From: Octopus vulgaris
Taxonomy: Eukaryota
Reading direction: 5' to 3'
NCBI GenBank assembly: GCA_951406725.2
Contig: OX597814.1
Coordinates: 206,336,001-206,400,000, forward strand
Length of the DNA: 64,000 nt
Shown: positions 5,970 through 63,899 of the stretch, one piece after another
Numbering within the stretch: the first letter of the stretch is position 1
Layout of the letters: each line of letters opens with the position of its first letter
Program-made: the position numbers and the translations under genes
The notes under the pieces: generated by a model
The model's database searches: none
What the model saw: the letters and a program-made list of their open reading frames with translations, nothing else
What the model was told of the DNA's origin: nothing

Positions 5970-8605
5970 AGGGAAGGAGAAAGTAACCGTTAAAGACCCC
6001 CCTCCCATGGAAGAAGTTCAAAACTTTTGGGAAAGGATTTGGAGTGACGAGAAGACGTACAACATAAATGCAGACTGGATTATACAAACTGAAGGATCCT
6101 ACCAAAATTTACAACAACAAGCATGGGAAGGCATCACAATAGCAGACCTAAGAAAGGCACTCACGAAGGCCCATAATTGGAAATCCCCGGTAAAGATAGG
6201 GTGCCGAATTTCTGGCTCTCATCGCTCCCATGCGCACACGGTTAGCTAATTCAGCTGCTCGATGGAATTATGAGAGATCCAAAGAAAACACCTGAATGGT
6301 TAGCAAGTGGTATTACCTACCTACTCCCAAAGAATAACGAAACCAAACTTCCAAAAAACTGTCGGCCTATAACCTGTCTATCCACCACGTATAAAATCCT
6401 AACATCTATCCTGGCGGAGAAAACATATGCATTCATGAAGAAAAACGATATTTTCCCCATTGAACAAAAAGGGTGCTGCCGAGGCTCATACGGATGCAAA
6501 GATCAACTGCTAATTAATCGTATGATCCTTGAGAACTGTCACAACAAGCGCAGAAATCTCAGCTCCGCATGGATTGACTATAAAAAGGCCTTCGATAGTA
6601 TACCGCATTCATGGATCTTGAAATCGCTGGACATCTTCAAAATTTCCCCTGTGATTTCAAACTTCCTGAAGCACAATATGTCGTTGTGGAATACGAATCT
6701 CCAATTATACCACTCTAATGGAGTACTTGCTTCAGAGAATATAAACATCAACTGTGGAATTTTTCAAGGTGACTCACTTTCACCTCTAATATTCTGCATA
6801 GCCCTAATACCCCTTACAAGTGAATTAAACAGAACAGGGTATGGGTATAAAATTGCCAATAAAAAAATAAGCCATCTATTTTATATGGATGACTTAAAAC
6901 TCTATGGTAAAGACGTTAATGAACTTGAAGGCATATTGCGCACTGTGAAAACATTCAGCGATGACATCGGGATGGAGTTTGGACTTGAGAAGTGTGCCAA
7001 GGCCACTTTCCAGAAAGGGAAAGTGAAGACCACAAGTTCAGTCGTGTTAGATGTTGACACAGTCATAAGAGAGCTTGAGCAAGAACAAACCTACAGATAT
7101 TTAGGGATAAATGAAGGCTCTATTATTCAGCATGCAAGCATGAAAGAGAAGATCAGGAAGGAATGTTATAGGAGAGTTCCAGCAGTCCTGAAATCAAACT
7201 AAATGCACGTAACAAGGTGTTAGCTATAAATTCCTTAGCAGTTTCAGTTGTTACTTATAGCTACAATGTGTTGAACTGGAATATGAGTGAAGTAAAGAAT
7301 ATAGATAGGAAAATACGCAAGCTGCTGAGTTGTAATAGGATGCACCACCCAAAGGCATATGTAGATCGCCTTTACCTCCCCAGAGCCCAAGGATGTCGAG
7401 GCCTGATCCAATTTGAACTAGCTTACAAAACAACCACAATTGGACTGGCCAAATATCTTGAAATAACGAATGACTGGATGCTAAAGCTCGTGGAAAATCA
7501 CGAGAGACGAAAGAAGCTTCATTCTATCATAAAGGAAAGCAAAACATTTGCTGTTGATCTCGTGCAAGATACCCAAACTGAACAACCCGAGGGAAGTACG
7601 GCAACTATTGTTTCAAAGAAGGTGAAAATAATGACAACGAAAAAAGCGCACGAGCAATTGGCTGATAGGTGGGAGGAGAAACCTCTGCACGGCAAATATG
7701 TGGTCCGTAGCAAACAAGCTGATGTTGACCAGAAGCAAACCCATCAGTGGCTACGGAGATCAGGGCTAAAAGCAGAGAGCGAAGGTTTCATCCTGGCTGC
7801 TCAAGATCAAAGCCTATTAACCCGGAACTACCAGGCCAATGTGATGAAAAATGGAGCAGACCCAAAATGCCGATTCTGCAACGACATGATTGAAACAGTG
7901 GACCACCTAATCTCTGGATGTAAAGTCTTAGCACTAGTGGAGTATAAATTAAGACGTGACAGAGTTGGCCAATATCTACACTGGCTAATAAGTCGGCATT
8001 ACAATATCAAAACTGCCGACAAGTGGTATAATCACCACCCTGAGGCTGTAACTGAAGGAGAAAATGTAACCATTCTGTGGGACATTCCAGTACATACAGA
8101 CCGAACCATCAAGGCCAATAAACCAGATATTGTTTTGAAAGACCAAAACAATAAAGTTTGCTTATTGATCGACATGAGCATCCCCTGTGATCATAATATC
8201 TCGGCGAAAGAATTTGACAAGCTCAGAAAATATAAAGACCTGTTCATTGAAATTGAGAAAATGTGGCATCTCAAGGCGGTTACATTACCAGTGATCGTAG
8301 GAGCACTAGGAATGATCAAGAAGGGAACCGAAAATTATATGAGAATGATCCCTGGCTTACCATCCCTGCAAGAAGTGCAAAAGATTGTCTTAACTGGTAC
8401 ATCACACGTATTGAGAAGAGCATTGTCGATGTGAGAACTATTACTACCCATGTATTTTAATTTAACTTTATTCTATAAAAGAAAAATGAACGAACTAGTG
8501 AGTTTAGTTTAATGGCCTACCAATGTATACTATGAGTTTCTTTGCCCTAGGATTCGGGAAGACACTCGGCAAGAAATAGAAGCAAATAGAAGAAAAACCC
8601 ATAAA
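5970..8605 (+). mobile_element. 5'-truncated R4/Dong-like RLE non-LTR retrotransposon inserted in (TAA)n
   Basis: RT (QGDSLSP, YMDD), CCHC knuckle CRFC..HLISGC, RLE KPDIV..IDMSIP..KY. Frameshifted. (TAA)n on both sides. Near-identical to 52090-54735. Confidence 0.93.
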
Positions 8606-8669: not shown

Positions 8670-8679
8670 AAGAAGAATG

Positions 8680-8776
<97 letters not shown>

Positions 8777-8820
8777 TAATAATAATAGTAATAATAATAA
8801 TAATAATAATAATAGTAATG

Positions 8821-8869
<49 letters not shown>

Positions 8870-8957
8870 TAATAATAGTAATAATGATAATAATAATAAT
8901 AATGGTTCTGGGCATTCTCACAGTCACAAACACACTCATGTATCTCCTATACATAAA

Positions 8958-12813: not shown

Positions 12814-14619
12814 GATAACGAGGATTTAAAACAGAACCGGTCCGTAACATCATCCGAATATAAGAAGCTTTTCAAGTCGATGGAGACGCCACCACCTAAC
12901 CCCAGACTGAAGAAATTTGAGGACGACTTATGGGGCATTGTAAGGAGCATTAAATTCAGGAAGTCGCCCCGTAGGAATAAACACCTCAGATACCTAGGGA
13001 AAATTACTAAGGATATCAACAGCTCAGACGGAATCCTGGTCCAATCTGACAAAACAAGGAACACTTACAAGATACCTATAAACCAGTACTTAGAATTACT
13101 CAGGAAAGAGATCCAGAAGAACTATAGAACTACAAATAAGAATACAATGAGAAGAGTTAACTTGGAGATTAAGAAAATTATGGTAAATTATGGGCTTCAA
13201 ATGAGAACACAACCGCTTAACCCAAGACAACCTAGATTCATCGTTAAGGACCACAAACCAAATTTCCACACCAATCCAGCATTAAGGCTCATATGCCCTT
13301 CTAGTTCCGACATCGGTTCCATCAGTAAGTACATTTTAGACAAATACATTCCTAGTTTAGTTAATAAGCTTAAGCTTAACCTTTGGGCGAACTCCTCGCA
13401 AGTCGTAAAGTGGTTCTCTTCTATCCCTAATAAAAACAGAACTAAGTTCATTCAGTTCGATATTGCTAATTTCTACCCCTCGATTAACCCTAGTGTACTC
13501 AATAAGGCCCTGTGGCATGCACATAATAAGGCAGGCCTCACAAGAGAAGAAATTGATATAATTCTAGTCGCCAGAAAATCCTTTATACAGTTTGAAGACA
13601 AGTTATGGGTTCGTAAGGATACTCCCAACGAGTTCGATGTACCTATGGGAAGTTCAGATAGCGCCCAGATTGCCGATTTGGTCGGAATCTATATTCTCTA
13701 TGAATTATCCGACCAATTCCCGGACATCGGAGGCGGCCTATATCGTGACGATTGTCTGTTTTACCTACAGAACACCCCGAATAGAATGATACAGAAAACT
13801 AAAAGTAGATTAGCTAGGTTCTTTAAAAGGATGGGCATGAGCATAGTTTTTGATAACGAACTTACCAAGGCTAATTTCTTAGATGTCACACTAAACCTGC
13901 ATAGCGATTCTTACTGCCCCTACCACAAACCTTCCACTAACTTAAAGTATGTCAGTGTTTTCTCTAACCACGCAAAAACTATAACAGACAATTTAGTTAA
14001 AAAAAGATTAACAAATTTATCTGCCAACGTCGACATTTTTAGGCAGAAAGCGGAATTTTATAATGCCGCCCTGTCAAAAGCCGGTTATTGGGAGAAGGTA
14101 GCATATATAGACCCGGCCCTTCCGAAACCAGCATTCTATCATCACGATAAGTCAAGTTACAATAACATAAATAATATAAGTAGTGATGGTAGCCTGAGGA
14201 ATGTCGATACAAGTACAACTAGCATAAATATAGATAACATAAATAATTTGCGGTCCAGGGGAGGCCATCGTAGGCCAAAACCCATTATTCAACCCAGAGA
14301 TACCCACCTTAATGTTAGAGTTGACTCTCCGAGCCAGTACAAGAACAGGAAAAACTATATTTGGTTTGTAATTCCCTTTGGTAAACAAATAAGATCTAAC
14401 CTACCGTTGCAGTTTCGCCAAGCAATTGCCAGAAATTTTCCCAGAAATTCGAGATATTACTCCACTGTAAATTCACACAAAGTTAGGATAGCCTTCTCCA
14501 ATACTAAAAATCTTTCACAGATAATTTCCTCCCATAACAATAAGCTGCTAAATAAGACCCTCTCACCCATGAGCGGAGACTGCTGTCTAATTCCAACATA
14601 ACGTCTAATTCCAACATAA

Positions 14620-14704
<85 letters not shown>

Positions 14705-16344
14705 GAACTGGCACAGATATTAGCAACCTCCATACCAACATTGGAGTTAGTAATAGTAATAAGGATAAGAGCAATGATCTCGTCATTAACGTAGGGGGAG
14801 TAAGTAATGGTAATAAGGATAAGAGCACTGATCTAGTCATTAATGTAGGGAGTCCCAACAATAATATTAGCAGCGGGTTTAACAACAGTAGTATTACGGA
14901 CATTATCAATCACAGCATTCACAGTAACAGGGAATATGCAGGTGATATTGCCTTAAATAGTAATGATAATGGCGTGAATAATATCGAATCCAGCGGTAGT
15001 TTTTACAATCATCATAGTAATAAGAACGCTGTATTAATATCGGAAACCAATCCCAATAGATTAAGGTTCTTATCTAGTAACTCCAAGATTAGAAACGCCA
15101 TTTACCAGTGCAGAGTTTATACTGATTCAGATGTCTACATTTATATCGGAGCTTCATCATCGAAATTGGCTGTTAGAATATCGAATCATTTTTCCACGTT
15201 CCGTGATAAGGAAAAGCAACACGCTACGGGGCTAAGCAAATTAGTCTGGCGTTTGAAGAACGCGAATTCAACTTTTAGACTGGAATGGTCAATTTTATCG
15301 GTGTTTTTACCGTTTGATAAGGGCAAAAAAATCTGTGCTCTTTGTAACTCGGAACTCTTTCATATTCTGTTCGCCCGAGGGCACCTTGTTAACTCGATTG
15401 TGCAAAATTCTTTCAGATGCCCCCACTGGAAACGGCATACATTTCTCTCATACCAATGAAGTCTAATATAGTTAACCCCTTGATTTCCTAAGAAAATTGA
15501 AAAAATTTGAATTTAATTTGTAATGAGATATCACTCCCCTGTTAGTATAAGAACTGCTAGTTGTCTAGAACTGCTGACATCCCTGACAGCAGCACTGTAT
15601 CCTGCCATGACCATTGTGGACACCCCCTCTCTCTATCAAGTGGTTACAGACGAACACACAGACACAGTCTTTTCTGTTGCTTGACCATTAATACCTGCTA
15701 TATCTCTCTCTCTTGCTGCCTTCGAAACACACTGCAACACATACATACACGCACACATACATACATGAAAGCAATTTCTCACACTCAAACTCTCTAGCAC
15801 TCATTCTTAAAATAATTCAAATATTAACACCAGTCATACAGAATACATTCACACTCTTTGATTTTCTTGTACTACCCTTCTGCTAACCGGATTTTGACCT
15901 TGAATTATCTCAACGGACCTTCTCGTCTGCTTTCACCCAGCCTGGCGTCAACGCATATAGATAGACAGTTTGTGCCATTTATTCCATGGGCTCCTCGTGA
16001 GCGTTTGTTGAAAAGCTTGCTGTGCATTTTGTTGGAGAATTAAGTTCCTGGATTTTCCTGAAGAGAAGGCTGCAAAATGGACTCCTTATTCAATCCGAAT
16101 TAGAGACTTTGCAGCCTTTGAAACATATGTAGAAAATAATAAAAAGGAATTTTGTTAAATCTTCGTTCAGCTCCATTTCTTCCTACACTAAATATATAAA
16201 ACTTCAAATTTCCGCACTAAGGCACGGAGTTTAGGCCCCATGGTCGTAACCTCAACCGTGCTTTTTCTGTTGTGATTTTTGCTACCCAGGTATCGGTTAT
16301 CATTTGAATTATCCGTAATAAGATAATTCATTTATCTACTTCAA

Positions 16345-36353: not shown

Positions 36354-36749
36354 TGTATGTATGTATGTATGTATGTATGTATGTATGTGTGTATGTGTGT
36401 ATGTATTATGTATGTAAGCGTGTATGTGTGTATCTATGTATGTATGTGTGTATTTGTGTATGTATGTAGGTAGGTAGGTAGGTAGGTAGGTAGTTAGGTA
36501 TGTAGGTAGGTAGGTAGGTAATTAGGTAGGTAGGTAGGTAGGTAGGTAGGTAGGTAGGTAGGTAGGTAGGTAGGTATAGGAGGCGGCTGAGTGTGTTTGT
36601 AACTGTGAGAATGCCCAGAACAATTATTATTATTACTACTACTACTATTATGTTACAGAACGTAGTATAGAATTCATAAAACACTTTGAAGGAATTTTGA
36701 TTTTATCGAAGAATATCAAATAACTTGATAAACTTCTGCGTGATGTATT

Positions 36750-38713: not shown

Positions 38714-39989
38714 ATTTGGTTATCTGTAAAAATATGAAAAAATAGAGCATATTAAGTAATGAAGATTCAACTCCGTTTCTTTATTTCATAGACATTTGCA
38801 ATGTTACGAAATAATCATAAGTGTTGTGGTCAATGTATCTGAGAAATCAATGCATTTTTCTGTTGCCGAGTACCTCTTTTATGGTTAAACATATCCCCGT
38901 TTCAAGGTCAATATTTTCTATTCAACGGTTGCAGGAGATTTTCTATTGCATTCGATGCTACCTAGTTCAAGGTATTAAAATTAGCATCATAACTGAATCA
39001 AGTTATATTTGAACTGAAAATACGGAGGTTTTAATGTAGATGGTAAAGATATATGAAATGAGTATGAATTTCATTTCAAACAGATTCAAAATGGAACGCT
39101 AAGAAATGACCATGTATGAGTACGTTTCTAGTAGACCTGAAGATGATAGTAACACAGAGATGAAACGAAACCCCTTTTGGACTCATGACCGATACATCAC
39201 ACTAGGCTTCGAAAGATATGCATTTACAGTCCAAGAACGGGAGATTGCTACTAAATACCTAATCAATAAAAGAGACATTGAAGCCATTGGCGTTCTAAGG
39301 GGCAGCTGAAAATATAGATGAATCATCGTCATCATCATCATCGTAGTCGCTGTCATCATCGTCCTTGTCATCTTCATCATAATCCTCATCATCCTCATCA
39401 TTTCACGTCTGCTTTTCATGCTGGCATGGTTTGGACGATTTGACAGGAGCTGGCTAGGCAAAAGCCTGCACAAGGCTTCAGTGTATGTTTTAGCATGGTT
39501 TTTAGGGCTGGATGCCCTTCCTAACCAACAAGCCGGAAGAGTGTCAGGTTTGGCATGATTTTTACAGCTGGATGCCCTTCGAAAATACCAACCACTTCAC
39601 AGTGTGGATTGGTGGCTCTTTACCTGGCACCAACATTTGCAGGGTCACCAAGTAATTTGCAAGACAAATATTCTTTCAGACGGGGAGGGAGCATTGGAAG
39701 AAGTGATGTTGTGCCAGATGAAGAGAGGTTGGTGTGACAGAAACAGGTGTGCATTCATGCTAAGGTAAGCGTAACAAGTCAGATATTGTTGTCTGGGGCA
39801 GGCAAGAAAAAGAATGTACCGTCGTACAGGTCGGTTGCCCTGCTGATGGGAATATCTCTTTGAAAATCAAAAACAAAGAAGGTAATTATGGACAAATGCA
39901 TTGTAACTTCCAGCTTCTATATCCAGATTACGAATTTGCATTCATTCCAATAATAATCCTTTCTACATTAGGCCTGAAATATTTGCGGG

Positions 39990-44810: not shown

Positions 44811-46125
44811 ACATCGATCATCAAAGCATGAAAATATATCTACCATTGGCACCTGTAACGAAACACCATACACTAAAGAATATTACAGCCAAATAAAGAA
44901 ACTTTGGACCTCAGAACTTTCTACATTCAATGAACCAGTGTCCCACAATGTGTTTGCAGTGCCAGTACTAGTCCCAACGTAGACCTCCCCTACCTAAAAC
45001 GAAAACAAGGTGGCAGAGGCTTAACATCTATCCCAAATGCCTTTCAATGTCGCATCATATCCCTTCGGGAACATATTTTACACACCAATTGTCGACGAGC
45101 ATCCCTTGACCAAGTTTGCATACATGAAGCTAATAACATCATAAGACTTAGAAGGCAGCTCCTTGAGCAACACTCTTTGTCTGATAAACTAGAATACATG
45201 CTCAAATAAGCCGCACGACTCTACTGCAACTTATCATCAGATGAAAGGATGAGCCTATGTAAGCAGACGACCATGCATGGATATGATAGTAGAAAGCTCC
45301 GTGATGATAGTAACATCGATCATCAAAGCTGTTTATTATGGACCACCAGCGGGATTACTACCTCCCACTTTGAAGGGTATGCGTTTGCAATCCAGGAATA
45401 GGAAATATCAACCAAGTATCTGATGAACAAAAGGGATGGAGATGTAGGTAAAGCATTCAAATGTGACAACCGATGCAGAATTTGTGGAGTTCACACTGAA
45501 GATATCACCCACACCTTAAGCAGTTGTCCGAAAATACCATCACCTTAAATGTCACATGACGTTGTAGCTAGGACACTCTATAAGGAAATCCGTGGTAAGC
45601 ATAATCCCGAGAAGAATGAAATAAGAATCCACAGTATGGTAGAAGTCATAGCCACACGTAACAAAAAAGAATACTGATGGAATGTCCCAGTGTAGACCAC
45701 AAAAAACTGTAATCCCAACAGACCTGAGAGAATGATTTGAGATAGAGAAGAGAAACTGTGTACAGTTGTGGCAATTAGCTGCCCAGCAGATGTGAACATA
45801 AAGCTGAAGATCAATGAAAAAGAGTGTATCTATGCTGAACTATTGAGAAATCAGCAGTTTCTCTATTCAGATTACAAGTTCAGGTTTATACCTGTAATTA
45901 TTGGGACTCTGGGACGTGTTACACAATGCCTAAATACCAATCTAGAGAAATTAGACTTCTCAAAACCAGAGAGGAGAAAGCTAATTTGAAGACTACAGAT
46001 ACGACCCATCACTGGAACTGTAAAAGTCTGAGAAACTTTCCAGAAGTTTATTATTAAATATATATGAGCATTTCTAGATATGTAACTATGTGCTTGAGAA
46101 AACGTACATAAAACATACAAATCTG
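44811..46125 (+). mobile_element. Second RLE family, degenerate copy
   Basis: Collinear with 27060-28430. Ends in (TACA)n. Confidence 0.85.
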
Positions 46126-48270
46126 CATATACATACATACATACATACATACATACATACATACATACATACATACATACATACATACATACATACATAC
46201 ATACATGCATGCATGCATGCATGCATGTATACATACATACATACATACATACATACATGCATGCATGCATGCATACATACATACATACGTACATACATAC
46301 ATACATACATACATACATGCATGCATGCATACATACATACATACATACATACATACATACATACATACATACATACATACATACATACATACATACATAC
46401 ATACATACATACATACTTACGAACTCCAAGCGACACGTCGCGTATTTGATGTGGCAGACTATTCATCGAAAATATGATGATTACTATCTCCAACTCTGAA
46501 GCTAAAACTACCAGCCTTATCAAATAACTGGTTAATCTTTAGAAGTATTAACTGAAGGAGCCTTTTATTAAAGATCGTATTGATTTTCGACTGAAACTTG
46601 AATTTAGCATGCAGAGATTTACTACAAACAACATGGCTGGACACAACATCAACAACAACACAACCAAGGAACAGAACAAAAACAACAGCTCAACAGATAA
46701 ACAGATTCTTTCTAGCTTTAGTTAGAGAAGAAACCGTAACCACAAAACTTTTTTTTTCTTGGATTTATGAATTGAGGACAGATTTATTAATTGTTATAGA
46801 AGAGCTAAACAAAACCCTTTTGTTGGATGTTTGGTCAGATTGGAACCATACATGGACGATCTGCATCCACAACTAAATCATTTTACTGCGAAAGTAGCAA
46901 TAGTAGTCAGGGCTATATAGCGGTGCCCCGACTAAAAATTTTCAAGAAGAAATAACTTTGATTTCGAAGCACTCTCTCGAAGAGAGAGAATTCTATATCA
47001 AAGTAAGCAAAAGACTGCCAGACACAGTATTAAAAGTTCACCAAGAAGAAGAGAAGAAGGAGATAGAAGTGATGTTTTGAAATAGCAAAAAGAGGACATT
47101 CAATTACGAACTGACCACTCTCAAACAGGAGCTAAAAGATGTCAGTGAGAAACCTCGAAATCAGAAGAGAATAACCAAGAGAAAAACAGTAAACGAAAAA
47201 GAAAAAATTAACCAGAACCAGGCAGCAGTATACAGAGATATTGAGAGGAGGAGTAGTGAACATCACAGAAACTTCTTCACGAGAAGACATAGACTTCTTC
47301 TGGATGAAAAGGTGTTAAACCACAAAAATAACAATAACAAACAGAAAAGGAAAGGCAACAGCATTTATAGGGATTCCAACCCCAGAGAGAAAAAGAAAAC
47401 CAGATTGATTCATGCTTTATCCTCAGACTGACACCTCGTCTCACATTAAACTCATTCAAAGAAAACAAAATGCTAAAAACAACAGCCAAATATCTCTCAA
47501 ATCCTTCCTTCAATTCTTAGAAAGGAGATACATTGGTGGACAATGCATGTGAATAGAGAGGGTGGTGGTCAAGGTTAGAATGTCTTGTATCATAGATCTA
47601 CTCCCGCAACACTGACATGTTGCTAAACCAAGAAAATAATAATTCTCTTACCTTTTGCGAGTCTCTCGATTTCAATGATATACGTACAACAAATACTGGG
47701 AAACAAAAAGTAAGCCAATTCCTTAAAAGCATCAATAATACTTCTCAACCAACAAAACAACCTTCCTCTGTGCTTTCCTGATCAAAACAGAACCCAAGTG
47801 GTGGTAGACAGACTGTATTGTCAGAACTATGCCTGAATAGGTGTAAACTATTTCCTGTGCGTGTGAAATATATAAATATATGTGTAAAATTGTAAATCTA
47901 TATCTGTAAAGAATGCATTAACATCATTCATGCGGATAACCCATTTATATACATGCATGCACAGTAACCCGAGAAGCTTTAGTCACCCCTGCACATTTAG
48001 ATAGGCTTATTACTTTTAGTAAATTGGATTTTCCAAAATGTTATTTTTAACACTAGAAAACTCAAAAAATCTTGTCTGTGTAAGCATTTCTCTTGACAGT
48101 CATGTCCAAATTCATCTTCAGATGCCAAATAAAAATGACAAAGAAGAAGCATGAGAAACGAGCTCAGATTGAAATTTGGTAAAAGAATGGAGAAATGTGT
48201 GAGTAAGACAGCAGCTGATTGGTCTGTAACTCCATCAACTGTTTCAAGAATTCAGAAAAGAATAGAAGAA
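44828..48270 (+). repeat. Direct segmental duplication of ~27060-30790; sub-block also at ~32625-33160
   Basis: Collinear TE relics and flank (ORFs 29752-29988, 32450-32776 and 47277-47513 share sequence). Confidence 0.8.
46430..47340 (+). mobile_element. Probable 5' portion of second RLE family (also ~28640-29100 and ~42825-43330)
   Basis: Each copy starts right after (TACA)n. Encodes ..VNKRFKRNQAAVYSDMR..DLFWRKI, resembling QNKLFTSNAKKFYREIG..NFWERIW of the Dong-like ORF. Confidence 0.6.
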
Positions 48271-48399
48271 GGTTCATAAAGAAGGCTTCACCTACAAGAA
48301 GTAGCCGAGAATGTTCCCTGATATCAAACTCAGCCAACCTAAAGTTAATACATCAGAAATTATGATACTGTTAGTTTAGACAATCTAACTGAAATAGAA

Positions 48400-49177
48400 G
48401 GTTAAGAATAGATTAGTTAGGTTTTTTTCGTAGAATGAGCTTTCACATTGTTTTTGACGATGAGTTAACTAAGGCTAACTTCTTAGATATTACTCTTAAT
48501 TTACAAAATAACTCGTACTTCCCATACACCAAACCTTCCACAAATATCAATTATATTAGTCCTTCCAGTAATCTCGCTAGGGCAATTAATAAGAATTTAG
48601 TTAAAAACATTTCAGTTAGATTGTCTAAACTATTCGCCAATGTTGACATTTTTAACGACAAGGCAGAATTTTTATAACTCTGCTTTAGTTAAAGCAGGAT
48701 ATAAAGAAAAAGTTACATACATTGATTCTGCTCAATTTCGTCCTTCATCTACTGTTCAAGACAAGAAATCTAGTTGTAATAATAAGTGTGATTTTAATTC
48801 TAATATTGTAAACAACACAAAACAATAAAATTCCTGTACGGGGTAAGGGAGGCAAGCGTTATTTAAGGCCATTTTTCCACTCTAGAGGTATTTCACTGTT
48901 CTTTAAAGATAATACCGCTTACAATTTGAATGTTACTAGGAAAACTGTCTGGTTTGTTATTCCGTATGGAAAACAAATTAAATCTAATCTTCCTTTACAA
49001 TTCCGTGATGTGGTTGCTAGGAACTTTCCAAAAAATTATTAATTCTCTTATAGTTAGAGTTGCCTTCTCCAACACAAAAAATCTTTCACAAATTATATCT
49101 TCTCATAATACCAGTCTGCTAAATAAAAGTCCATTTTCTGGGAGTTACAACGTTAATTTTATTAATTCCAGCCCCTC

Positions 49178-49240
<63 letters not shown>
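48400..49240 (+). mobile_element. Degenerate Penelope-like element, RT thumb to (AAT)n linker
   Basis: MSFHIVFDDELTKANFLDITLNL and VRVAFSNTKNLSQIISSHN match 12880-14601. Confidence 0.88.
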
Positions 49241-49242
<2 letters not shown>

Positions 49243-52200
49243 GCACCAGCCTTGACAGCGGCTGGACGTGTTCCTCACTTCTCTGACAGTTCGGTGGCCG
49301 AAAGCCATAGAAACACTAATATGGGCCAGTTTAGCAACGGGGAAAAATAACTCTCAAAGACTGGAACATCTACAATACCTCGTGAGTATTTGAAATTCTC
49401 TTCAAAGTGGGTTAAGAAATTTACAAATTTACGTATCTACAGCTTTCAAACATACATCCGATCGGCTTTAAAAACTTTAATACCCACAACTGCCTCTGTA
49501 AGCACCCTTTTTTCTTTCTTTCTTTTTTTTTTATTCTCTCTAAAAACATCACGCTTTTCTTTTTTCTTTTTGTAGACTTGCAAAACCCTAAAACTTTCTA
49601 TGAATATCTGACTTTTCTTTGCTTCCTCCCTGAATATTCAAATATAAATGTAAACATATACTTTTTATTGCAAAAACACACCTGTTCTTCTAACTGGACA
49701 TACAAACATCTCTAGAGGGGTCAACTTCAACCTCCACAATATTACCTTGCACGAAATATACAAACACTTTTTATTGCAATAACACAAACGCACATGGAAA
49801 AAATGATGATGCTAAGATTCTCTCTGGTCGAACACAGCTTCTCTATTCACAAATAATACAGAACAGCCCTTCAAAATAAGTTAAGAAAATTTACAAATTT
49901 ACATATCTACAGTTTTCAAACATACATTCGACCAGCTTTAAAAACTTTGATACCCACAATTGCCTCTGTAAACATCCTTTTTTTTTTCTTCTCTCTAAAA
50001 ACATCACGCTTTTCTTTTTGTGGACTTTCAAAACCGTAAAACTTTCTATGAAAATCTGACTTTTCTTTGCTTCCTCCCTGAATATTCAAATATAAACGTA
50101 AACATATACTTTTTATTGCAAAAACACACCTGTTCTTCTAACTGGACATACAAACATCTCTAGAAAAGTCAACTTCAACCTCCACAATATTACCTTACAC
50201 GAAATATACAAACACTTTTTATTGCAATAACACAAACGCACATGGAAAAAAAAAAAAATGATGATGCTAAGATTCTCTCTGGTCGAACACAACTTCTCTA
50301 TTCACAAACAATACAGAACAGCCCTTCCTTAATTTTTCTTAAGGCTAATAGTAGTAAACATCTGAACTTTTTTTGACCACACCCCCAAAAAAAAAAAAAA
50401 AAGATAGTAATAGTGCTGATATTCTATCTATCTATCTACACACACACACACACACAAACCTCACCTCGGCTCTATTGTTAACCAAATATGAAAGTATTAT
50501 TTGACAGGCAAGAACTCTGACATTGAAGACAGTCAGCCAGCCAACCACCAAGCCAGCCAACGAGACAGACAGACACTACTGTGATGGTGATAATGATAAA
50601 AAAACAAAAATAACAATAATAAGATACTGCTGTGACTACACATAAAACAATATCATTGATGATGATGGTGGTGATGGTGATGGTGATGATGATAATGATG
50701 ATGGTAATGGTGGTGATAATGATGATAGTGATGGTAATGGCGAAGATAATAACAATAATAAGCCGACTACGGCTGCTATAATGGTACGATTATAATTGTA
50801 ACGGCAATGATGGCCGTCTCCCCACGAGCCAATCAAAGCTAAAAAATGATAACATTATCGTACCAAAATGTTTTTGGAAACTAAAAGGAAAACTAAATCA
50901 GTATACCAAATCGCTTGTCCTATGGTTAATCTGGAAGCGCGTCCCCCAGGGAAGAGCCAGCCTGGGATCGAAAAGTCATCAACTGGCACAAACTCTTCTC
51001 CGAATACGGACATGGATGGTCACTTGAACGGGAAATCCCCCAACTCGAGCCCTCCAAGTTCACCACCACAACCACCACAGAAAGAAAAATGTAAGCGGAA
51101 CAAATGGACCCGAGAAGAGTATAAAGAAGTAATATACGCTTATTACTATGCATTAGGTAGGCCATCTCAAGAGAGACACACCGCAAACTCTTACAGTATA
51201 TGGGGAACACGGAATCAAGACAGTAGGCCCTATTTGGACGAGAACAAATTAGCAAATGTGAGGAGGGATATCTTTAGAAATAACAGACTCACAGACAGTG
51301 AAATAAGTGCGATCAAGCACGCAACGGAAAATGACATAAATATAAGACACAAAGGAAATGAAGAATCAGATGAACAGTATAGCCCGCCACGAGGCTTAAT
51401 TGAAAGACTGCCATCTGACCAAAGTACGCAAAGGCCTGAAGATACAAGAAATTCTATTGTACCTGTTAAAGATAGCCAGGAAAACGAAAAAACAACAGTA
51501 ACTGAAGATCTCGCATTTGCTGAAGAACACAGAGAGTCTATGGCAGAAATGAGGCAGAAAATCCTGAATACGCTTGAAGTTGTAAGACATACAAGTATGA
51601 ATGATAGAGAACCGCTTCATAAACTCTCAAATACAAACCAAAATAAAAAACAAATCCAAATTGGCAACTATGTAACAAATGAAATAATAAGAGAATTAAA
51701 ACCTGATTTTACTGAGTTAAATGAAATTATTTACGCTTCTGCTAGGGCAATTGAAACCAGCTGTATGCCCCCGAAAAAACAAAGAAAACAAAACCTGGGA
51801 AGAAATCAAACCTGGAGAAGTGAAATTGAAAAAGAGATTGAATTTATGAGAGGGGAAATATCAATATTAAATGAACTAATATGTGGAAATGATGTAAGAT
51901 CCAGAACAGGAAGAAAGATGAAGAGAAAATTTGGATCCTCACCAAGAGAAGAACTGATATCAATAAAAGAAACGCTGAAACAAAAAGTCCAAGCAAAAGC
52001 CCAAAGAATACCAAGATTTGAGAAGAGAAACAAGTTTTACAAGCAAAATAAGCTGTTCACATCCAATGCCAAAAAATTCTACAGAGAAATAGGGAAGGAG
52101 AAAGTAACCGTTAAAGACCCCTCCCATGGAAGAAGTTCAAAACTTTTGGGAAAGGATTTGGAGTGACAAGAAGACGTACAACATAAATGCAGACTGGATT

Positions 52201-54735
52201 ATACAAACTGAAGGATCCTACCAAAATTTACAACAACAAGCATGGGAAGACATCACAATAGCAGACCTAAGAAAGGCACTCACGAAGGCCCATAATTGGA
52301 AATCCCCCGGTAAAGATAGGGTACCGAATTTCTGGCTCGCATCGCTCCCGTGCGCACACGGTAAGCTAGTTCAGCTGCTCAATGGAATTTTGAGAGACCC
52401 AAAGAAAACACCTGAATGGTTAGCAAGTGGCATTACTTACCTACTCTCAAAGAATAACGAAACCAACCTTCCAAAAAACTATCGGCCTATAACCTGTCTA
52501 TCCACCACGTATAAAATCCTAACATCTATCCCGGCGGAGAAAACATATGCATTCATGGAGAAGAACGATATTTTCCCCATTGAACAAAAAGGGTGCCGCC
52601 GAGGCTCTTACGGATGCAAAGATCAACTGCTAATCAATCGTATGATCCTTGAGAACTGTCACAACAAGCGCAGAAATCTCAGCACCGCATGGATTGACTA
52701 TAAAAAGGCCTTCGACAGTATACTGCATCCATGGATCTTGAGATCGCTGGACATCTTTAAAATTTCCCCTGTGATTTCAAACTTCCTGAAGCACAATATG
52801 TCGTTGTGGAATACGAATCTCCAATTATACCACTCTAATGGAGTACTTGCCTCAGAAAATATAAACATCAACTGTGGAATTTTTCAAGGTGACTCACTTT
52901 CAACTTTAATATTCTGCATAGCCCTAATACCCCTTACAAGTGAATGAAACAGAACAGGGTATGGGTATAAAATTGCCAATAAAAAAATAAGCCGTCTATT
53001 TTATATGGATGACTTAAATCTTTATGGTAAAGACAATAATGAACTTGAAGGCCTATTGCGCACCGTGAAAGCATTCAGCGATGACATCGGGATGGAGTTT
53101 GGACTTGAGAAGTGTGCCAAGGCCACTTTCCAGAAAGGGAAAGTGAAGACCACAAATTCAGTCGTGTTAGATGTTGACACAGTCATAAGAGAGCTTGAGC
53201 AAGAACAGACATACAAATATTTAGGGATAAATGAAGGCTCTGGTATTCAGCATGCAAGCATGAAAGAGAAAATCAGGAAGGAATGTTATAGGAGAGTTCG
53301 TGCAGTCCTGAAATCTGAAATAAATGCACGTAACAAGGTGTTAGCTATAAATTCCTTAGCAGTTCCAGTTGTTACTTATAGCTACAATGTGTTGAACTGG
53401 AATATGAGTGAAGTAAAGAATATAGATAGAAAAATACGCAAGCTGCTGAGTTGTAATAGGATGCACCACCCAAAGGCAGACGTAGATCGCCTTTACCTTC
53501 CCAGAGCCCAAGGAGGTCGAGGCCCTGATCCAATTTGAACTAGCTTACAAAACAACCACAATTGGACTGGCCAAATATCTCGAAATATCGAATGACTGGA
53601 TGCTAAAGCTCGTGGAAAATCACGAGAGACGAAAGAAGCTTCATTCTATCATCAAGGAAAGCAAAAAATTTGCTATTGATCTCGTGCAGGATACCCAAAT
53701 TGAACAACCCGAGGGAAGTACGGCAACTATTGTTGCAAAGAAGGTGAAAATGATGGCAATGAAAAAAGCGCACGAGTAATTGGCTGATAGGTGGGAGGAG
53801 AAACCTCTGCACGGCAAATATGTGACCCGCAGCAAACAAGCTGATGTTGACCAGAAGCAAACCCAACAGTGGCTGCGGAGCTCAGGGCTAAAAGCAGAGA
53901 GCGAAGGTTTCATCCTGGCTGCTCAAGACCAAAGCCTATTAACCCGGAACTACCAGGCCAATGTGATGAAAAATGGAGCAGACCCAAAATGCCGATTCTG
54001 CAACGACATGATTGAAACAGTGGACCACCTAATCTCTGGATGTAAAGTCTTAGCACCAGTGGAGTATAAATTAAGACATGACAGAGTTGGCCAATATCTC
54101 CACTGGCTAATAAGTCGGCATTACAATATCAAAACTGCCGACAAGTGGTATAATCACCACCCTGAGGCTGTAACTGAAGGAGAAAATGTAACCATTCTGT
54201 GGGACTTTCCAGTACATACAGACCGAACCATCAAGGCCAATAAACCAGATATTGTTGTAAAAGACCAAAACAATAAAGTTTGCTTATTGATCGACATGAG
54301 CATCCCCTGTGATCAAAATATCTCAGCGAAAGAGTTTGACAAGCTCAGAAAATATAAAGACCTACTCATTGAAATTGAGAAAATGTGGCATCTCAAGGCG
54401 GTTACAATACCAGTGATCGTAGGAGCACTAGGAATGATCAAGAAGGGAACCGAAAATTATATGAGAATGATCCCTGGCTTACCATCCCTGCAAGAAGTGC
54501 AAAAGATTGTCTTAACTGGTACATCACACGTATTGAGAAGAGCATTGTCGATGTGAGAACTGTTGCTGCTCATGTATTTTAATTTAACTTTAAAATTTAA
54601 AAAAAAAAAAAAATTAACGAACTACTGAGTTTGGTTTAATGGCCTACCAATATACACTATGAGTTTCTTTGCCCTAGGAGTCGGGAAGACACTCGGCAAG
54701 AAATGGAAGAAAATTTGAAAGAAGAAAAAAAAAAG
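49241..54735 (+). mobile_element. Full-length R4/Dong-like RLE retrotransposon with ~1.6-kb 5' UTR (ORF 50868/50921-54556, disrupted)
   Basis: Single RT-CCHC-RLE ORF broken by frameshifts (~52120, ~53524) and stops (52945, 53777). (TAA)n on both sides. 5' UTR contains a ~460-bp tandem duplication (~49410-50325). Confidence 0.92.
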
Positions 54736-54900
54736 TAATAATAATAATAATAATAATAATAATGATAGCAATAAAAACATGGTTTTGGTCTCTGAGGACA
54801 ACCCCAACAGAATTAAATTTATGTCTAATAATTCTAAGGTCAAGAATTCTATATACCAGTGTAAAATTTCTTGCGGTACTCTGAACTCTTCCATATTCTC
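54736..54900 (+). mobile_element. Continuation of the 48400 Penelope element (start of GIY-YIG) after the nested insertion
   Basis: NDSNKNMVLVSEDNPNRIKFMSNNSKVKNSIYQCKI aligns with HSNKNAVLISETNPNRLRFLSSNSKIRNAIYQCRV of 14974-15459. Confidence 0.85.
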
Positions 54901-54945
54901 TTCTCTAAGAGAATGTCGAAAGTAATAGCATCTGCGTTCAACTCC

Positions 54946-55009
<64 letters not shown>

Positions 55010-58035: not shown

Positions 58036-58719
58036 GTCTGGTTGACTGATGAGTAGTAACAGAAGGCTGCGTCTTCGTATCACGCCGGGGCCATCAATTT
58101 ATGTAGTGGGAATATATATTCAGTTCCAGGTGCTGATATGGATACGTGTATGTTATTACAAGATTTCATAGAGAGATCATGAATAAATTCAAGAACAATA
58201 TTTACTACGTAAAAATGTATTTTATTTAATGGTCGTTGATGATACGTAATCAAAATGTAGAATCTAATTGAATTAAATAATCTATGCAAGACAGATGAGA
58301 GATAGGAAATATGGAAATAACAGCTACGTGGTGATTTTCAGTCATGTGGCGTAGAGAAACAGACGGACATAGCAATGACGTGAATGGCTCTAAGTCTAAT
58401 CGACTGAGAAGTGAAAGCAGGGTTAGCAAGCTGTTTTTATTAAGGGAACGCTAGATATTCTAGAAACTTCCAAGAGAAACATTAAGCTTCTTGAATAATA
58501 AAGAATCCGCTTTCATGGCACAGATGTTTCCAGAACCTTAGTGAAGGGAGACGACTCTATAAACCTTCTTGCAAGGGACATCATTCAACTATTTAGCTAC
58601 ATACATAGACCACTACATATATATATACATATATGAGAGAGTGGGAAGGGAGGAGGGAGCTGAGTGTCGTTGTGACTGTGAGAATGTCCTGAACCAGCAA
58701 TATTAATATTATTATTATT

Positions 58720-61700
58720 TTTTCCTTCTTTCTTCAAATTTTCTTCCGTTTCTCGCCGAGTGTTTTCCATACACCTAGGGAAGAGAAGCTCATTGTATGC
58801 ATTCCCAGATTACACACGCAAATTCACAGATAAAATATGTATTTAAAAATTAATAAATAAATAAATTCATGGATGGATGTTATTTTCAAAGCGATAGTGC
58901 TCTTCTCAGTACATGAGCCGTTCCAGTCAATACGATTTTTTGCACTTCCTTGTAGGGATGGTGAGCCTGGAATCATTTTCAAATAGGTTTCAGTACCTTT
59001 TTTTATCATTCCTACAGATCCTACAATCACTGGTACTGTAGTCGCCTCGAGATGCCACATTTTTTCAGTTTCTATTAGCAGGTCTTTATATTTACTAATC
59101 TTGTCAAATTCTTTCGCCACTATATTGTGATCACAGGGAATACTCTTGTCAATTAATAAACACATCCTTTTTGTCTGATCTATTATAATAATATCCGGTT
59201 TATTAGCTTTTATAGTCTTGTCGGTCCTCACGGGGAAGTCCCATAGAATCGACACATTTTCTCCCTCAGTCACAGCTTCAGGATGATGTTTATACCATTT
59301 GTCAGCGGTTTTGATTTTATAATGCCACATATTGTCCATTGTAAATACTGGCCGACTCTGTCATGTCTTGCTTTATATTCTGAAGGTGCTAAGACTCTAC
59401 ACCCTGAGATTAGGTTGTCTGTTGTTTCAGTCTCCTCGTTACAGAATCAGCATTTTGGGTCAGCTCCATTTTTCATCACATTGGCTTGGTAGTTCCGGGT
59501 TAATAAGCTTTGGTCTTGAGCAGCTAATATGAAACCTTCACTCTCTGCTTTCAGCCCTGAGCTTCGTAACCATTGGTGCGTGTGTTTCTGGTCGACATCA
59601 GCTTGTTTGCTACGGGCCACGTACTTGCCATGGAGAGGTTTCTGTTCCCATCTGCTAGCTAAATTTTCATGTGCTTTTGTCTTTGCAATTAATTTTATTT
59701 TCCTTGCAGCTGCAGTTGGCGTATTTCCTTCAGCTTGATCAATCTGGTGTGTATCTAAGAGATCAGCAGCGAATTGTTTGCTCTCTTTGAGAATAGAGTG
59801 AAGTTTTTTCGGTCTTTCATGTTTTTCAACAAGTTTTAGCAGCCAATCGTTGGTTGTTTCAAGGTATTTGGCCAGTCCGATTGTGGTGGTTTTGTATGTA
59901 AGCTCAAGCTGGATCAAACCTCGACCTCCCTGAGCTCTGGGAAGGTAAAGGCGATCTACGTCTGCCTTTGGATGGTGCATCTTATTACAAGTCAGTAGCT
60001 TGCGGATTTTTCTGTCAATTTTCATTATTTCACTGGTATTCCAGTTAAGCACATTGAAGCTATATAGAACAACTGGTACTGCTAAGGAATTTATGGCTAA
60101 CACCTTATTATATGCATTCAGCTCAGACTTCAGGACTGCTCGAACTCTTCTATAACATTCCTTCCTAACCTTCTCTTTCATGCTTTCATGCTGGATACCA
60201 GAGCCTTCATTTATTCCTAGGTATTTATAGGTTTGTTCCTGCTCAAGTTCCTTTATTACTATTTCGACATCTAATTCGATTGAACTAGACTTTACCAATT
60301 TCCCTTTCTTAAAAGTGGCTTTGTCACACTTTTCAAGGCCAAACTCCATCCCGATATCATCACTGAATCCTTTCACAGTATGTAATAATGCTTCAAGCTC
60401 TTCATCATCTTTGCCATATAGCTTTAAGTCATCCATATAAAATAGATGGCTTATTTTTCTGTTGTCAATTTTGTAGCCATATCCTGTTCTATTCAGTTCA
60501 CTTGAGAGTGGTATAAGTGCTATGCAGAAAATTAGTGGTGCAAGTGAGTCACCTTGGAAATTGCTGCAGTTTATGCTAATGTTGTTTGAGTGCAATACTC
60601 CATTAGAATGATATAATTGGAGCTTCGTGTTCCATAGTGACATATTATACTTTGAAAAATCTGATATCACAAGAGAAATTTTGAAAATGTCCAGCGATTT
60701 CAGAATCCACGAATGTGGTATGCTGTCAAAGGCTTTTTTTGTAATCAATCCATGAAGAGCTGAGATTTCTGCGCTTGTTATGGCAGTTCTCAAGGATCAT
60801 GCGATTAGTTAAGAGCTGAACTTTGCATCCATATGAGCCTCGTCTGCATTGGGAATGAGGTTATTCTCTTCCATAAACGTATATGTTTTCTCTACTAGAA
60901 TAGATGTCAAGATCTTCTAGGTAGTAGATAAACATGTTATAGGCCGGTAGTTTTGGGGTCTTTCGTTTTGTTATTTTTGGGGAGGAGGTAAGTAATACTA
61001 TTTGCCATCCAATGTGGTGTTTTTCCGGGTCTTTCATAATACTATTAAATAGTATTACTAACATTTTGTGTGCGGACGAGAGTGATGAGAGCCAGAAATT
61101 TGGTACTCTATCAATACCAGGGGATTTCCACTTATGAGCCTTCGTTAGTGCCCTCCTTAGGTCGGCGATTGAGATGTCTTCCCATACCTGTTCTTGTAGA
61201 TTTTTGTAGTCATCTTGGGTGCGTTTGATCCACTCTGCATTTTCATTGTATGGTTTCTCATCACTCCAGATCCCCTTCCAAAAGTGTTCAACTTCTTCCA
61301 TTAGGGGTGGATTTTCAATGGTTATTTTTTTTTCCCTATTTCCCTGCAAAATGATTTAGCATTGGATTTGAACATCTTATTTTGTTTGTAGCATCTGATT
61401 CTTTTCTCAAGTCTGCGTATTCTCTGAGCTTTTGCTTGAACTTTTTGTTTAAGTGTTTCTTTCGCTGACATTAGTTCTTCTCTTGTTGAGTGTCCATATT
61501 TTCTCATAATCTTCCTGCCTTTTCTTGATCTTACATAATTTCCAGAGATTAGCTCAGTTAATATTGATATCTCCCTTCGCAATTATTCAATTTCAGTTTC
61601 AATTCTACTCCTCCAATTTGATTTTCTCTTCGAATTTGGTATTGTTGGCTTTTTGGGTGTTAAACAGCGTCTTTCGATTACCTTAGCGACAGAGTAAATA

Positions 61701-63785
61701 ATTTCATTTAATTTATTAAGATCAGGTTTTAGTTGTTGTATGATTTCCTGTGTAACGCAGTTGCCAATTTGTGTTTTATGTTGGTGTGCATTTGAGAGTT
61801 TATGGAGTGGTTCCCTATCATTCATAGTTGTATGGCCTACAACTGCAAGCTCATTCAGAACTTCTTGCTTCATTTCAATGATAGATTTTCTGTGTTGTTC
61901 AACAAACATGAGGTCTTCAAATTCTGTTTCGACATCATTTTCCGGGCTGTTTTTTCTAGGGTCATTATATTTTCCTACTTCTTCAGGATCTTGAGTCGTT
62001 TCGGCAGATGGTCGCCTTTCAGTCAATGCTTGTGGCCCAACATTCCTCTCCTCAGCTTCGTTATTTCTTTCCTGACTTATATTTAGGTCATTCTCTACCA
62101 CTTATTTAATAGAGGTTAATTCTGCATCTGTGAGTCTGGTATTTCTGAAGATATCTCTTCTAACATTTGCTAAACTGCTTTCATCCAGGTTTGGTCTGCT
62201 AGCTGGATTCCGGCTCCTCCTTGGGCTGGTCTACTTAATGCAAATTAATAAGCATATATTACTTCTTTATATTCTTCCCGGTTCCATTTAGTTCTTTTAC
62301 TTTTTTGATTTTCTGGTCGTTGTGGTGGTGAACTTTAGGGGCTTAATTTGGGACAAATCCCGTTTAAGTGACCTTCCAGGTTCGTATTCGGGGAAGATAT
62401 TCAGCCATTTGAAAATTTTTCGCCATCAAGCTGGCAGCCTCCTGACGGACGCGCTTCCTGTATAACCATTGGGCAACCGATTCGGTGTACTGTTAGAAAT
62501 TTTCTTTTCAAGTAAAGTTAAATTATTATTAAGTTTTCATTAAAAAATAAATAAATAGATAAAATAAAATAGAAATTAAATAAAAGATTTAACCACTAAT
62601 TTTCATATAGGGGCCTCATTTATCATCATTAGCAGCCCCAGTAGTTATAGCAGCAGCAATATCATTGTCAGCAGCTGCAGCGGCAGTGGTAGTAGCAATA
62701 GTAATGACCGCAGCAACAGCATCAGCAGCAGCAGTGGTAGTACCAGTAGTAGTAGTAGCGGCGGTGGCAGCAGCAGCAGTAGCAGCAGCAGTAGCAGCAG
62801 CAGTAGCAGCAGCAGTAGCAGCAGCAATGGTAGCAATAGTAGTAGTAGCAGTGACAGCAGCAGCAGTGGTAGCAGCAGCAGTAGTAGTAGCAGCAGCAAC
62901 AGCAGTAGTGGCAGCAGCAGCAGTAGTAGCAGCAGCAACAGCAGTAGTAGTAGCAGCAGCAGTAGCAGCAGTAGTAAATACAGCAGCAACACCAGTAGCA
63001 GTAGCAGTAGTAGTAGTAGTAGTAGTAGTAGTAGTTAATGTGGCTCATGTAATCTTTTTTTTTTAGGTGGGATAGGGGTCCTATCGGTCAAAAAAGTTCA
63101 GCAGCGAACAGTGACCTTAACCTTAAGAAAAATTAAGGAAGGGCCGAGTTACTCTGTTCTGTATTATTTGTGAATAGAGAAGTTGTGTTCGACCAGAGAG
63201 AATCTATAATTAGTATCATTATTTTTTTTCCATGTGCGTTTGTGTTATTGCAATACAAAAGTGTTTGCATATTTCGGGTAAGGTAATATTGTAGAGATTG
63301 AAGTTGACTTTTCTAGAGATGTTTGTATGTCCAGTTAGAAGAACAGGCGTGTTTTTGCAATAAAAAGTATATGTTTACATCTATATTTGAATATTCAGGG
63401 AGGAAGCACAGAAAAGTCAGATTTTCATAGAAAGCTTTAAGGTTCACCAAAGGTAGTCTTTTGTAAGTCCACACAAAGAAAAGAGTGATGTTTTTAGAAA
63501 GAATTAAAAAAATGGATGTTTACAGAGGCAATTGTGGGTATTAAAGATTTTAAAGCTGATCAATTGTGTGTTTGAAAACTGTAGATATGTTAATTTGTAA
63601 ATTTCTTGACTTATTTTGAAGAGAATTTTAAATACTCACAAGATATTGTAGATATTCCAGTCTTTGAGAGTTATTTTTCCCCGTTGCTAAACTGGGTCAT
63701 ATTAGTGTTTCTATGGCTTTCGGCTACTGAATTGTCAGAGCAGCGAGGAGGAACACGTCCAGCCGCTGTGAAGGCTGGCGCTCTA
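58720..63785 (-). mobile_element. Full-length R4/Dong-like element, diverged subfamily
   Basis: ORF fragments 62101-58824 with QGDSLAP, YMDD and KPDIII..IP. Homologous 5' UTR at 63785-63050 and 3' UTR (CACTCGGC.AGAAA.GGAAGAAAATTTGAA). (TAA)n at both ends. Confidence 0.9.
62646..63035. repeat. (AGC/AGT)n trinucleotide tract inside the retrotransposon 5' UTR
   Basis: Direct reading. Lies between the conserved 5' block and the ORF. Confidence 0.9.

Positions 63786-63899
<114 letters not shown>

What the first reader, a model, noticed from the sequence alone, without database searches (positions are those of the whole stretch)
48400..54900. A TAA-targeting retrotransposon parasitises the poly-Asn linker of a Penelope element
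The Penelope RT-thumb sequence stops at (AAT)n (49178-49240), and the GIY-YIG start resumes right after (AAT)n at 54736. The whole 5.5-kb R4/Dong-like element therefore sits inside the coding microsatellite of another retroelement. The less disrupted Penelope has the same (AAT)n at 14620-14703. Inference: one TE family spreads landing pads for another, which inactivates it.
Basis: partly seen in the sequence, partly recalled or inferred. Interest (0 to 1): 0.72.

Follow-up and report, generated by a model that had tools for sequence, protein, structure and literature searches.

The report
Dong retrotransposon inside a Penelope microsatellite
A 5.5-kb Dong-like jumping gene sits in an (AAT)n repeat between two halves of a broken Penelope-like jumping gene in a likely octopus genome, most likely because it lands on any TAA repeat and this already decayed element carried one, so the nesting is real but likely ordinary.

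Summary
The nesting is real. A full-length R4/Dong-like LINE (49243-54735) lies between (AAT)21 and (TAA)9. A Penelope-like RT thumb is on the left and a GIY-YIG start on the right, same strand and in order. An Octopus sinensis relative (P0241) carries RT, Asn7 and endonuclease in one frame, so the repeat is a family trait.

The parasitism reading is not shown. Two of three Dong copies in the window sit in non-Penelope TAA runs. Occupancy is 1 of 2 Penelope TAA loci against 2 of 5 others. Read-contig depth puts Dong at roughly 15 times this Penelope family (rough). The host is a 0.9-kb relic without RT core, with 3 frameshifts, about 220 nt of endonuclease deleted and no 3' end, so Dong probably did not kill it (p 0.05-0.10 only). 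On the left the repeat reads Ile, not Asn. TAA targeting by Dong is published. No genome was held, so enrichment is untested.

Side finding: this Octopus Hydra-like lineage has lost the CxCX5C linker motif and has an Asn-rich linker instead.

The parts
48390..49177 (+). PenB left piece: end of RT palm and thumb of a Hydra-like Penelope element; catalytic core and 5' two-thirds absent; 3 frame switches
   Evidence: tblastn and blastn against PenA, P0241, P0005
49178..49242 (+). (AAT)21 plus AA, 5' target repeat of Dong; reads Ile in the thumb frame
49243..54735 (+). D2: full-length R4/Dong-like non-LTR retrotransposon, 5,493 bp
   Evidence: 5' and 3' ends shared with D3 and D1
49400..50327 (+). 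~470-bp tandem duplication (89%) in the D2 5' UTR; single in D3
   Evidence: self-blastn
50853..54556 (+). D2 ORF: N-terminal region, RT, CCHC knuckle, restriction-like endonuclease; 2 frameshifts and 2 stops
54736..54762 (+). (TAA)9, 3' target repeat; reads Asn in the endonuclease frame
54763..54909 (+). PenB right piece: start of GIY-YIG endonuclease (to 54869), ~220-nt internal deletion that removes the YIG half, short later piece (54878-54909); 3' end absent
   Evidence: loose ends at 54879, 54878, 54909
12814..15459 (+). PenA: 5'-truncated Hydra-like Penelope ORF (RT 12814-14601; Asn run, linker and GIY-YIG 14620-15459), one frame break at the duplication 14585-14619
14620..14703 (+). (AAT)28 in PenA, no Dong body; N7 in O. 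sinensis relatives
16050..16139 (+). type I hammerhead ribozyme motif with short palindromic helix III, downstream of the PenA ORF (likely its pseudo-LTR)
   Evidence: descriptor scan: only hit in the window, 0 hits in 20 block shuffles; fold z -2.7
5971..8603 (+). D1: 5'-truncated Dong copy, 3.6% from D2, between (ATA)121 and (AAT)99, non-Penelope site
58720..63787 (-). D3: full-length older Dong copy, 21% from D2, between at least 72 TAA/TGA units and (TAA)4, non-Penelope 3' flank
36623..36650 (-). empty paralogous site of D1: 4 perfect TAA units plus degenerate units

Best explanation
A Dong-like LINE lies in an (AAT)n run between two collinear pieces of a Penelope-like element, likely because its endonuclease cuts any TAA repeat and this probably already dead Penelope copy carried one in its linker. 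Steps. (1) Shown: an Octopus Hydra-like Penelope lineage encodes a short in-frame Asn run between RT thumb and GIY-YIG domain. (2) Inferred: a copy of a related subfamily inserted here and decayed. (3) Inferred from established R4/Dong biology: Dong's restriction-like endonuclease nicked the repeat and primed reverse transcription there, which leaves TAA on both sides and fixes the sense orientation. (4) Inferred: the repeat lengthened at or after insertion. The Penelope family is one minor source of TAA targets among very many; no recognition of Penelope sequence is needed.
For: 3 of 3 Dong copies in the window have TAA runs on both sides, sense strand, and 2 of 3 have non-Penelope flanks. 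In 22 of 29 related loci from other organisms with at least 100 nt past the ORF end, a sense TAA run follows within 450 nt (0 of 29 antisense, 2 of 29 inside the ORF end). None of the 80 loci was nested in a Penelope hit; the single PLE hit (L056) lies 1 kb downstream with no upstream half. Window occupancy: 1 of 2 Penelope TAA loci, 2 of 5 others, p 1.0. The empty paralog of D1 has only 4 perfect units, so short runs likely suffice. Summed contig depth is 14-16 times higher on the Dong 3' end than on the Penelope EN start in 3 of 3 large runs. Host lesions: 3 frameshifts in 723 bp plus an EN deletion, against 4 lesions in 3,605 bp of Dong. Majority differences from other copies in all three large runs: 2 in ~455 Dong bases, 3 in ~95 Penelope bases (table 3; 7 rows not shown). 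TAA targeting by Dong in molluscs is stated in PMC7998251 and PMC3812793; Dong-R4 is the most numerous recently active LINE in O. vulgaris, 1,129 insertions (PMC13282606).
Against: No genome was held, so enrichment was not measured; window counts are too small to exclude it. 2 of 7 TAA loci in this window are Penelope-borne, which is a large share. The lesion-density difference is not significant (p 0.096 with frameshifts only, 0.052 with the deletion). PenA's run is 28 units against 7 in relatives, with a duplication beside it; if that is a tail-only Dong hit, 2 of 2 Penelope loci were hit. The tool states that contig depth is no copy number. The 80 related loci are mostly short (5 of 12 with over 1 kb beyond the TAA run) and not from octopus. 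No contig bridged the junction, because repeats were skipped.
Confidence: 0.8

Rival explanations
1. Dong is enriched in Penelope linkers: the Penelope lineage spreads (AAT)n targets and Dong hits remove active copies often enough to matter for the family.
For: In-frame N6-N7 run in 4 of 4 O. sinensis family proteins; 2 of 7 TAA loci in the window are Penelope-borne; PenA's run is expanded with an adjacent duplication; both families have recently active copies in O. vulgaris; TEs that prefer other TEs are known (PMC6719617).
Against: 2 of 3 Dong copies are elsewhere; no local enrichment; Dong looks ~15-fold more abundant than this Penelope type, so at most a small share of Dong copies could sit there; the one host seen is a relic.
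Confidence: 0.1
2. The two flanks come from one Penelope copy, but from two different AAT-like tracts, and about 250-300 nt of linker was lost at or after the insertion.
For: Thumb end to EN start is 171 nt, against 486 nt in PenA and 139 aa in P0241. The bases just before the EN start in PenA are a degenerate AAT tract that aligns with the 3' repeat of D2. P0092 has its N6 run near the EN start. This is compatible with the best explanation and refines it.
Against: PenB is a different subfamily whose intact linker was not seen; it may simply be short. One search found no longer protein for the EN start.
Confidence: 0.4
3. The flanks belong to two different Penelope copies brought together by deletion or recombination between two Dong-carrying or AAT-carrying loci.
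For: Frame offset across the repeat, short linker, both pieces truncated; the window is rich in rearranged duplications; no contig bridged the site.
Against: Same strand, correct order, no overlap, similar distance from PenA on both sides (25-30% and 35% mismatch); D2 has both of its own ends.
Confidence: 0.06
4. Assembly artefact: a join made through (AAT)n arrays.
For: Both junctions are simple repeats; raw reads were not available (all 24 runs are contigs).
Against: An artefact would not be expected to place thumb and EN start in order; the 3' repeat is only 27 nt.
Confidence: 0.03

Closest known systems
Dong (Bombyx mori), DongAg, DongBg and other R4/Dong clade non-LTR retrotransposons
   Same: One ORF with RT, CCHC knuckle and restriction-like endonuclease; (TAA)n on both sides; 5' end starts with GC right after TAA, as in the B. 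mori junction primer in PMC3774820; molluscan TAA target stated in PMC7998251 and PMC3812793.
   Different: PMC7998251 says the TAA target keeps Dong outside coding sequence; here it lies in the coding linker of another retroelement. No HDV-like ribozyme was found at the 5' end.
Hydra clade of Penelope-like elements (Craig et al. 2021, PMC8557442)
   Same: C-terminal GIY-YIG, DKT motif, no CCHH, CxxC and CxH around the conserved E and N, hammerhead motif, (TA)n near the ends of PenA.
   Different: The CxCX5C linker motif is absent in PenA, PenB, P0241, P0091 and P0092, replaced by an Asn-rich linker; a CxC..C motif was found in 97 of 134 relatives and is kept in an Argonauta relative (P0005).
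Tx1L inserting into Tx1D DNA transposons in Xenopus; Tourist into Tourist
   Same: One TE found inside another through a sequence preference (PMC6719617).
   Different: Tx1L prefers the host TE itself; Dong here uses a generic microsatellite and most local copies are outside Penelope.
Microsatellites born in Alu/L1 tails and bodies
   Same: A retroelement is a source of TAA-type repeats (PMC3812793).
   Different: Here the repeat is internal, protein-coding and inherited with the family.

Membership tests
R4/Dong clade LINE | single ORF with RT followed by CCHC knuckle and restriction-like endonuclease | tested here: met
   RVT_1 and zf-RVT hits; collinear with intact 1237-aa P0243; family profile matches only R2 proteins in PDB, E 8e-44; single-sequence RLE match to R2 is weak, E 0.08; CxxC..H..C and PD..D..K visible
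R4/Dong clade LINE | inserted in (TAA)n, repeat on both sides, sense strand | tested here: met
   3 of 3 window copies; 3' side in 22 of 29 relatives
R4/Dong clade LINE | N-terminal diverged Myb/SANT domain without zinc fingers | tested here: inconclusive
   No Pfam hit in the N-terminal ORF; a conserved W..T block is present in the family alignment; no profile comparison with Myb was run
R4/Dong clade LINE | 5' HDV-like ribozyme (shown for B. mori Dong) | tested here: inconclusive
   Conserved 5' 170 nt between D2 and D3, but no Rfam hit, fold z -0.1 and -1.1, own descriptor 0 hits (not validated on a known ribozyme)
R4/Dong clade LINE | RT phylogeny with named Dong/R4 elements | not tested
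   No relative named Dong or R4 among the 120 listed
Penelope-like element, C-terminal EN+ | RT and C-terminal GIY-YIG endonuclease in one ORF | tested here: met
   P0241 is one frame from RT core to EN; PenA EN model pLDDT 86 matches I-TevI at Z 10.2, rmsd 2.4, 89 aligned; Pfam alone did not detect it
Penelope-like element, C-terminal EN+ | hammerhead motif in the pseudo-LTR | tested here: met
   16050-16139; matches the description in PMC4209133; PenB has lost this part
Hydra clade PLE | DKT motif, no CCHH, CxxC and CxH around E and N | tested here: met
   PenA translation and alignment against PMC8557442 section 11
Hydra clade PLE | CxCX5C linker motif before GIY-YIG | tested here: not met
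   Absent in PenA, PenB, P0241, P0091, P0092; filed as Hydra-like, not as a member
Hydra clade PLE | N-terminal RWK motif | not testable with these tools
   PenA and PenB are 5'-truncated; RW[KR] is present in relatives P0004, P0005, P0009
Hydra clade PLE | insertion into (TA)n | tested here: inconclusive
   PenA starts ~10 nt after (TA)27 and a (TA)n array begins at 16344, ~200 nt after the hammerhead; 3' boundary not fixed; PenB's 3' end is lost
TE-targeting TE (Tx1L/Tx1D type) | target is specific to the host TE | tested here: not met
   2 of 3 Dong copies lie outside Penelope sequence

The most novel reading that the evidence does not exclude
An Octopus lineage of Hydra-like Penelope elements traded its cysteine linker motif for an (AAT)n-coded Asn linker. 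Every new copy thereby plants a Dong target in the middle of its own ORF, Dong hits these sites more often than other TAA runs, and one retroelement family thins out the active copies of another through a shared microsatellite.
Probability: 0.1. Interest if true: 0.55.

Novelty: new member of a known kind. Interest (0 to 1): 0.22.

Why it matters
As it stands it is a clean example of known Dong behaviour, with one small twist: the TAA target is coding sequence of another retroelement, whereas the literature seen treats it as non-coding. If enrichment were shown genome-wide, it would be a countable TE-on-TE interaction mediated by a microsatellite. The side finding may be the more useful one: a Hydra-like lineage without the linker cysteines is a natural test of the published idea that this motif drives (TA)n targeting (PMC8557442). 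Fragments of this family are also annotated as host genes in O. sinensis (names such as 'myb-like protein I' and 'kinase dyrk1').

Tried and rejected
Whole-genome count: no assembly held. Exact Dong 3' motif in metagenome contigs: 0 matches. Longer proteins for the EN start: none among 276 candidates (weak search). No RNA holder listed. Pfam did not recognise the Penelope RT or EN; Foldseek gave only weak GIY-YIG rows (E 0.34); profile search of PDB 0 hits. Rfam: 87 rows, none at the gathering score, nearly all microsatellite look-alikes; no ribozyme. HDV-like ribozyme at the Dong 5' end not found. L056, the only related locus with a PLE hit, is a neighbour and not a host. An empty paralog of the PenA or PenB site was sought; homology stops at 12770 and 48270. 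Earlier findings of the scan: nothing in 3 look-ups. Literature searches for Dong nested in Penelope or in octopus microsatellites listed no such report; the library lacks most subscription papers. Rejected: 'poly-Asn on both sides' (left frame is Ile); 'long arrays are needed as landing pads' (empty paralog has 4 perfect units); 'Naiad' (domain order is RT then EN).

Full report
SETTING. The window is very repeat-rich. Its Penelope ORF is 87-96% identical to proteins named from Octopus sinensis, so the source is likely an Octopus genome (inference). No whole genome was held.

OBSERVATION. (AAT)21 lies at 49178-49240 and (TAA)9 at 54736-54762. The left flank matches residues 336-589 of the Penelope RT at 12814-14598 in four segments, and the right flank matches the start of its endonuclease, on the same strand and in order. 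The 5,493 bp between share their 5' end with a second full-length copy, D3, and their 3' end with D1 and D3. They encode a broken ORF collinear with an intact 1237-aa relative, with RT and zinc-knuckle hits; the family profile matches only R2 proteins in the PDB. The nesting is real.

THE HOST FAMILY. P0241 (O. sinensis) runs in one frame from RT core through thumb, N7 and a low-complexity linker into the endonuclease. P0001, P0091 and P0092 also have N6-N7. The PenA endonuclease model (pLDDT 86) matches the GIY-YIG domain of I-TevI at Z 10.2, rmsd 2.4, 89 aligned residues, followed by EndoII and UvrC. DKT, missing CCHH, and CxxC/CxH motifs fit the Hydra clade as described in PMC8557442. A hammerhead motif follows the ORF. 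The clade's CxCX5C linker motif is missing in all five Octopus sequences that cover it, while a CxC..C motif was found in 97 of 134 relatives that my regular expression could place; many of the 37 others are fragments or mis-placed matches. I therefore call the family Hydra-like.

The repeat left of Dong reads Ile in the thumb frame and only the right one reads Asn. PenA is itself out of frame at the repeat. PenA and PenB differ by 25-35%. PenB has 171 nt between thumb end and EN start, against 486 nt in PenA, so linker may have been lost.

IS PENELOPE A SPECIAL TARGET? The 11 merged runs of four or more TAA units in the window collapse to 7 loci once Dong flanks are paired. Three hold Dong. 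One of 2 Penelope loci and 2 of 5 others are occupied (Fisher p 1.0); the numbers are too small to exclude enrichment. D1 and D3 have non-Penelope flanks, and the empty paralog of D1 has 4 perfect units. Among 80 related loci from metagenome contigs (best 80 of 371), 30 reach the C-terminus and 29 of them have 100 nt or more beyond it; 22 of 29 have a sense TAA run within 450 nt, 0 of 29 an antisense run. None of the 80 is nested in a Penelope hit, but flanks are short and these are other organisms. Contigs of four runs laid on 54200-54946 gave summed depths 14-16 times higher on Dong than on the Penelope EN start in the three large runs. Divided by the depth of single long contigs, this suggests on the order of 10^4 Dong ends and 10^3 EN starts; the tool warns that depth is no copy number, so this is only a rough bound. 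In O. vulgaris, 1,129 Dong-R4 and 329 Penelope insertions are recently active (PMC13282606).

DID DONG KILL THE HOST? PenB lacks its RT core and 5' two-thirds and has 3 frame switches in 723 bp. It has lost about 220 nt of the endonuclease: other copies continue at 54879 into the YIG half (loose ends in all four runs; sizes). It stops matching at about 54909. D2 has 4 lesions in 3,605 bp. The difference in lesion density is suggestive only (p 0.096; 0.052 with the deletion). Positions where most depth differs in all three large runs number 2 in ~455 Dong bases and 3 in ~95 Penelope bases (two more in two of three runs; 7 rows not shown), which may reflect age or subfamily. D1 and D2 differ by 3.6%. 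An older, already dead host is the likelier order, but it is inferred.

AGAINST MY READING. Two of 7 TAA loci here are Penelope-borne. PenA's run is four times the family length with a duplication beside it, which could be a tail-only Dong hit. No genome-wide test was possible and no contig bridged either junction.

MECHANISM. Shown: anatomy, TAA flanks, family-encoded Asn run, host lesions. From established knowledge of R2/R4-type elements (recalled, and consistent): the restriction-like endonuclease nicks the repeat and primes reverse transcription, which explains repeats on both sides and co-orientation with the Penelope ORF. Inferred: order of events and repeat growth.

WHAT IS KNOWN. Dong's TAA target in insects, molluscs and cnidarians (PMC7998251, passages; PMC3812793, passages). 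Dong 5' ribozyme (PMC3774820, passages). Hydra clade (PMC8557442, passages and section 11). PLE hammerheads (PMC4209133, passages). TEs that prefer other TEs (PMC6719617 and PMC8869645, passages). Octopus repeats (PMC13282606, parts 1-2 of 3; PMC8967140, passages). Xiong and Eickbush 1993 and Kojima and Fujiwara 2004 were not read, only seen cited. Searches listed no report of Dong nested in a Penelope linker; supplements were not read.

VERDICT. Real nested insertion, best explained by ordinary TAA targeting (0.8). Novelty: new member of a known kind. Interest 0.22. The bold reading (enriched, family-level parasitism through a coding microsatellite) has probability about 0.1 and would deserve 0.55. 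The loss of the linker cysteines in this Penelope lineage is worth a separate look.

Noticed in passing
window 15010-15110 and 54763-54869; P0241, P0091, P0092: This Octopus Hydra-like Penelope lineage lacks the CxCX5C linker motif (found in 97 of 134 relatives) and has an Asn-rich linker, yet PenA lies next to (TA)n at both ends.
   Followed up: partly
window 16050-16139 (+): Type I hammerhead motif with long helix II and palindromic helix III after the PenA ORF; missed by Rfam.
   Followed up: yes
window 8904-8938, 36578-36644 (-), 58651-58717 (-): D1 and D3 are 21% apart but both lie just 5' of the same ~55-bp motif that also follows the empty site: likely two independent Dong insertions at look-alike sites. 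Whether the motif is a dispersed repeat (a better 'landing pad' candidate) or a paralogous 3' flank is unknown.
   Followed up: partly
window 5608-5970 and 8607-8903 versus 36623-36650: The D1 site has 121 + 99 repeat units, its empty paralog about 9 degenerate units: large arrays may arise at or after Dong insertion.
   Followed up: partly
window 14585-14619: ~18-bp duplication right before the expanded (AAT)28 breaks the PenA frame; slippage or a tail-only Dong hit.
   Followed up: partly
window 3281-5509 (+) and 36753-38719 (-): 742-aa uninterrupted ORF with a hydrophobic, membrane-like C-terminal half and no Pfam match, with an inverted, broken paralog (82% aa) in a ~5.6-kb duplication.
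   Followed up: no
window 26741-28636, 44875-46420, 41840-42820, 18287-18917: Fragments of a second, distant restriction-like-endonuclease LINE family (22-27% to Dong); three are followed by (ATAC)n arrays.
   Followed up: no
window 29719-30789, 47244-48270: Repeated segment ending in a short frame that looks like a Tc1/mariner transposase start (recalled resemblance, not tested); PenB begins ~120 nt after it breaks off.
   Followed up: no
P0001, P0091, P0092, P0241: Penelope fragments annotated as O. sinensis host genes with names borrowed from Asn-rich proteins.
   Followed up: partly
P0090, P0009: Asn runs (N11, N4) also occur in linkers of other relatives that keep the cysteine motif, so Asn-rich linkers recur.
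   Followed up: no
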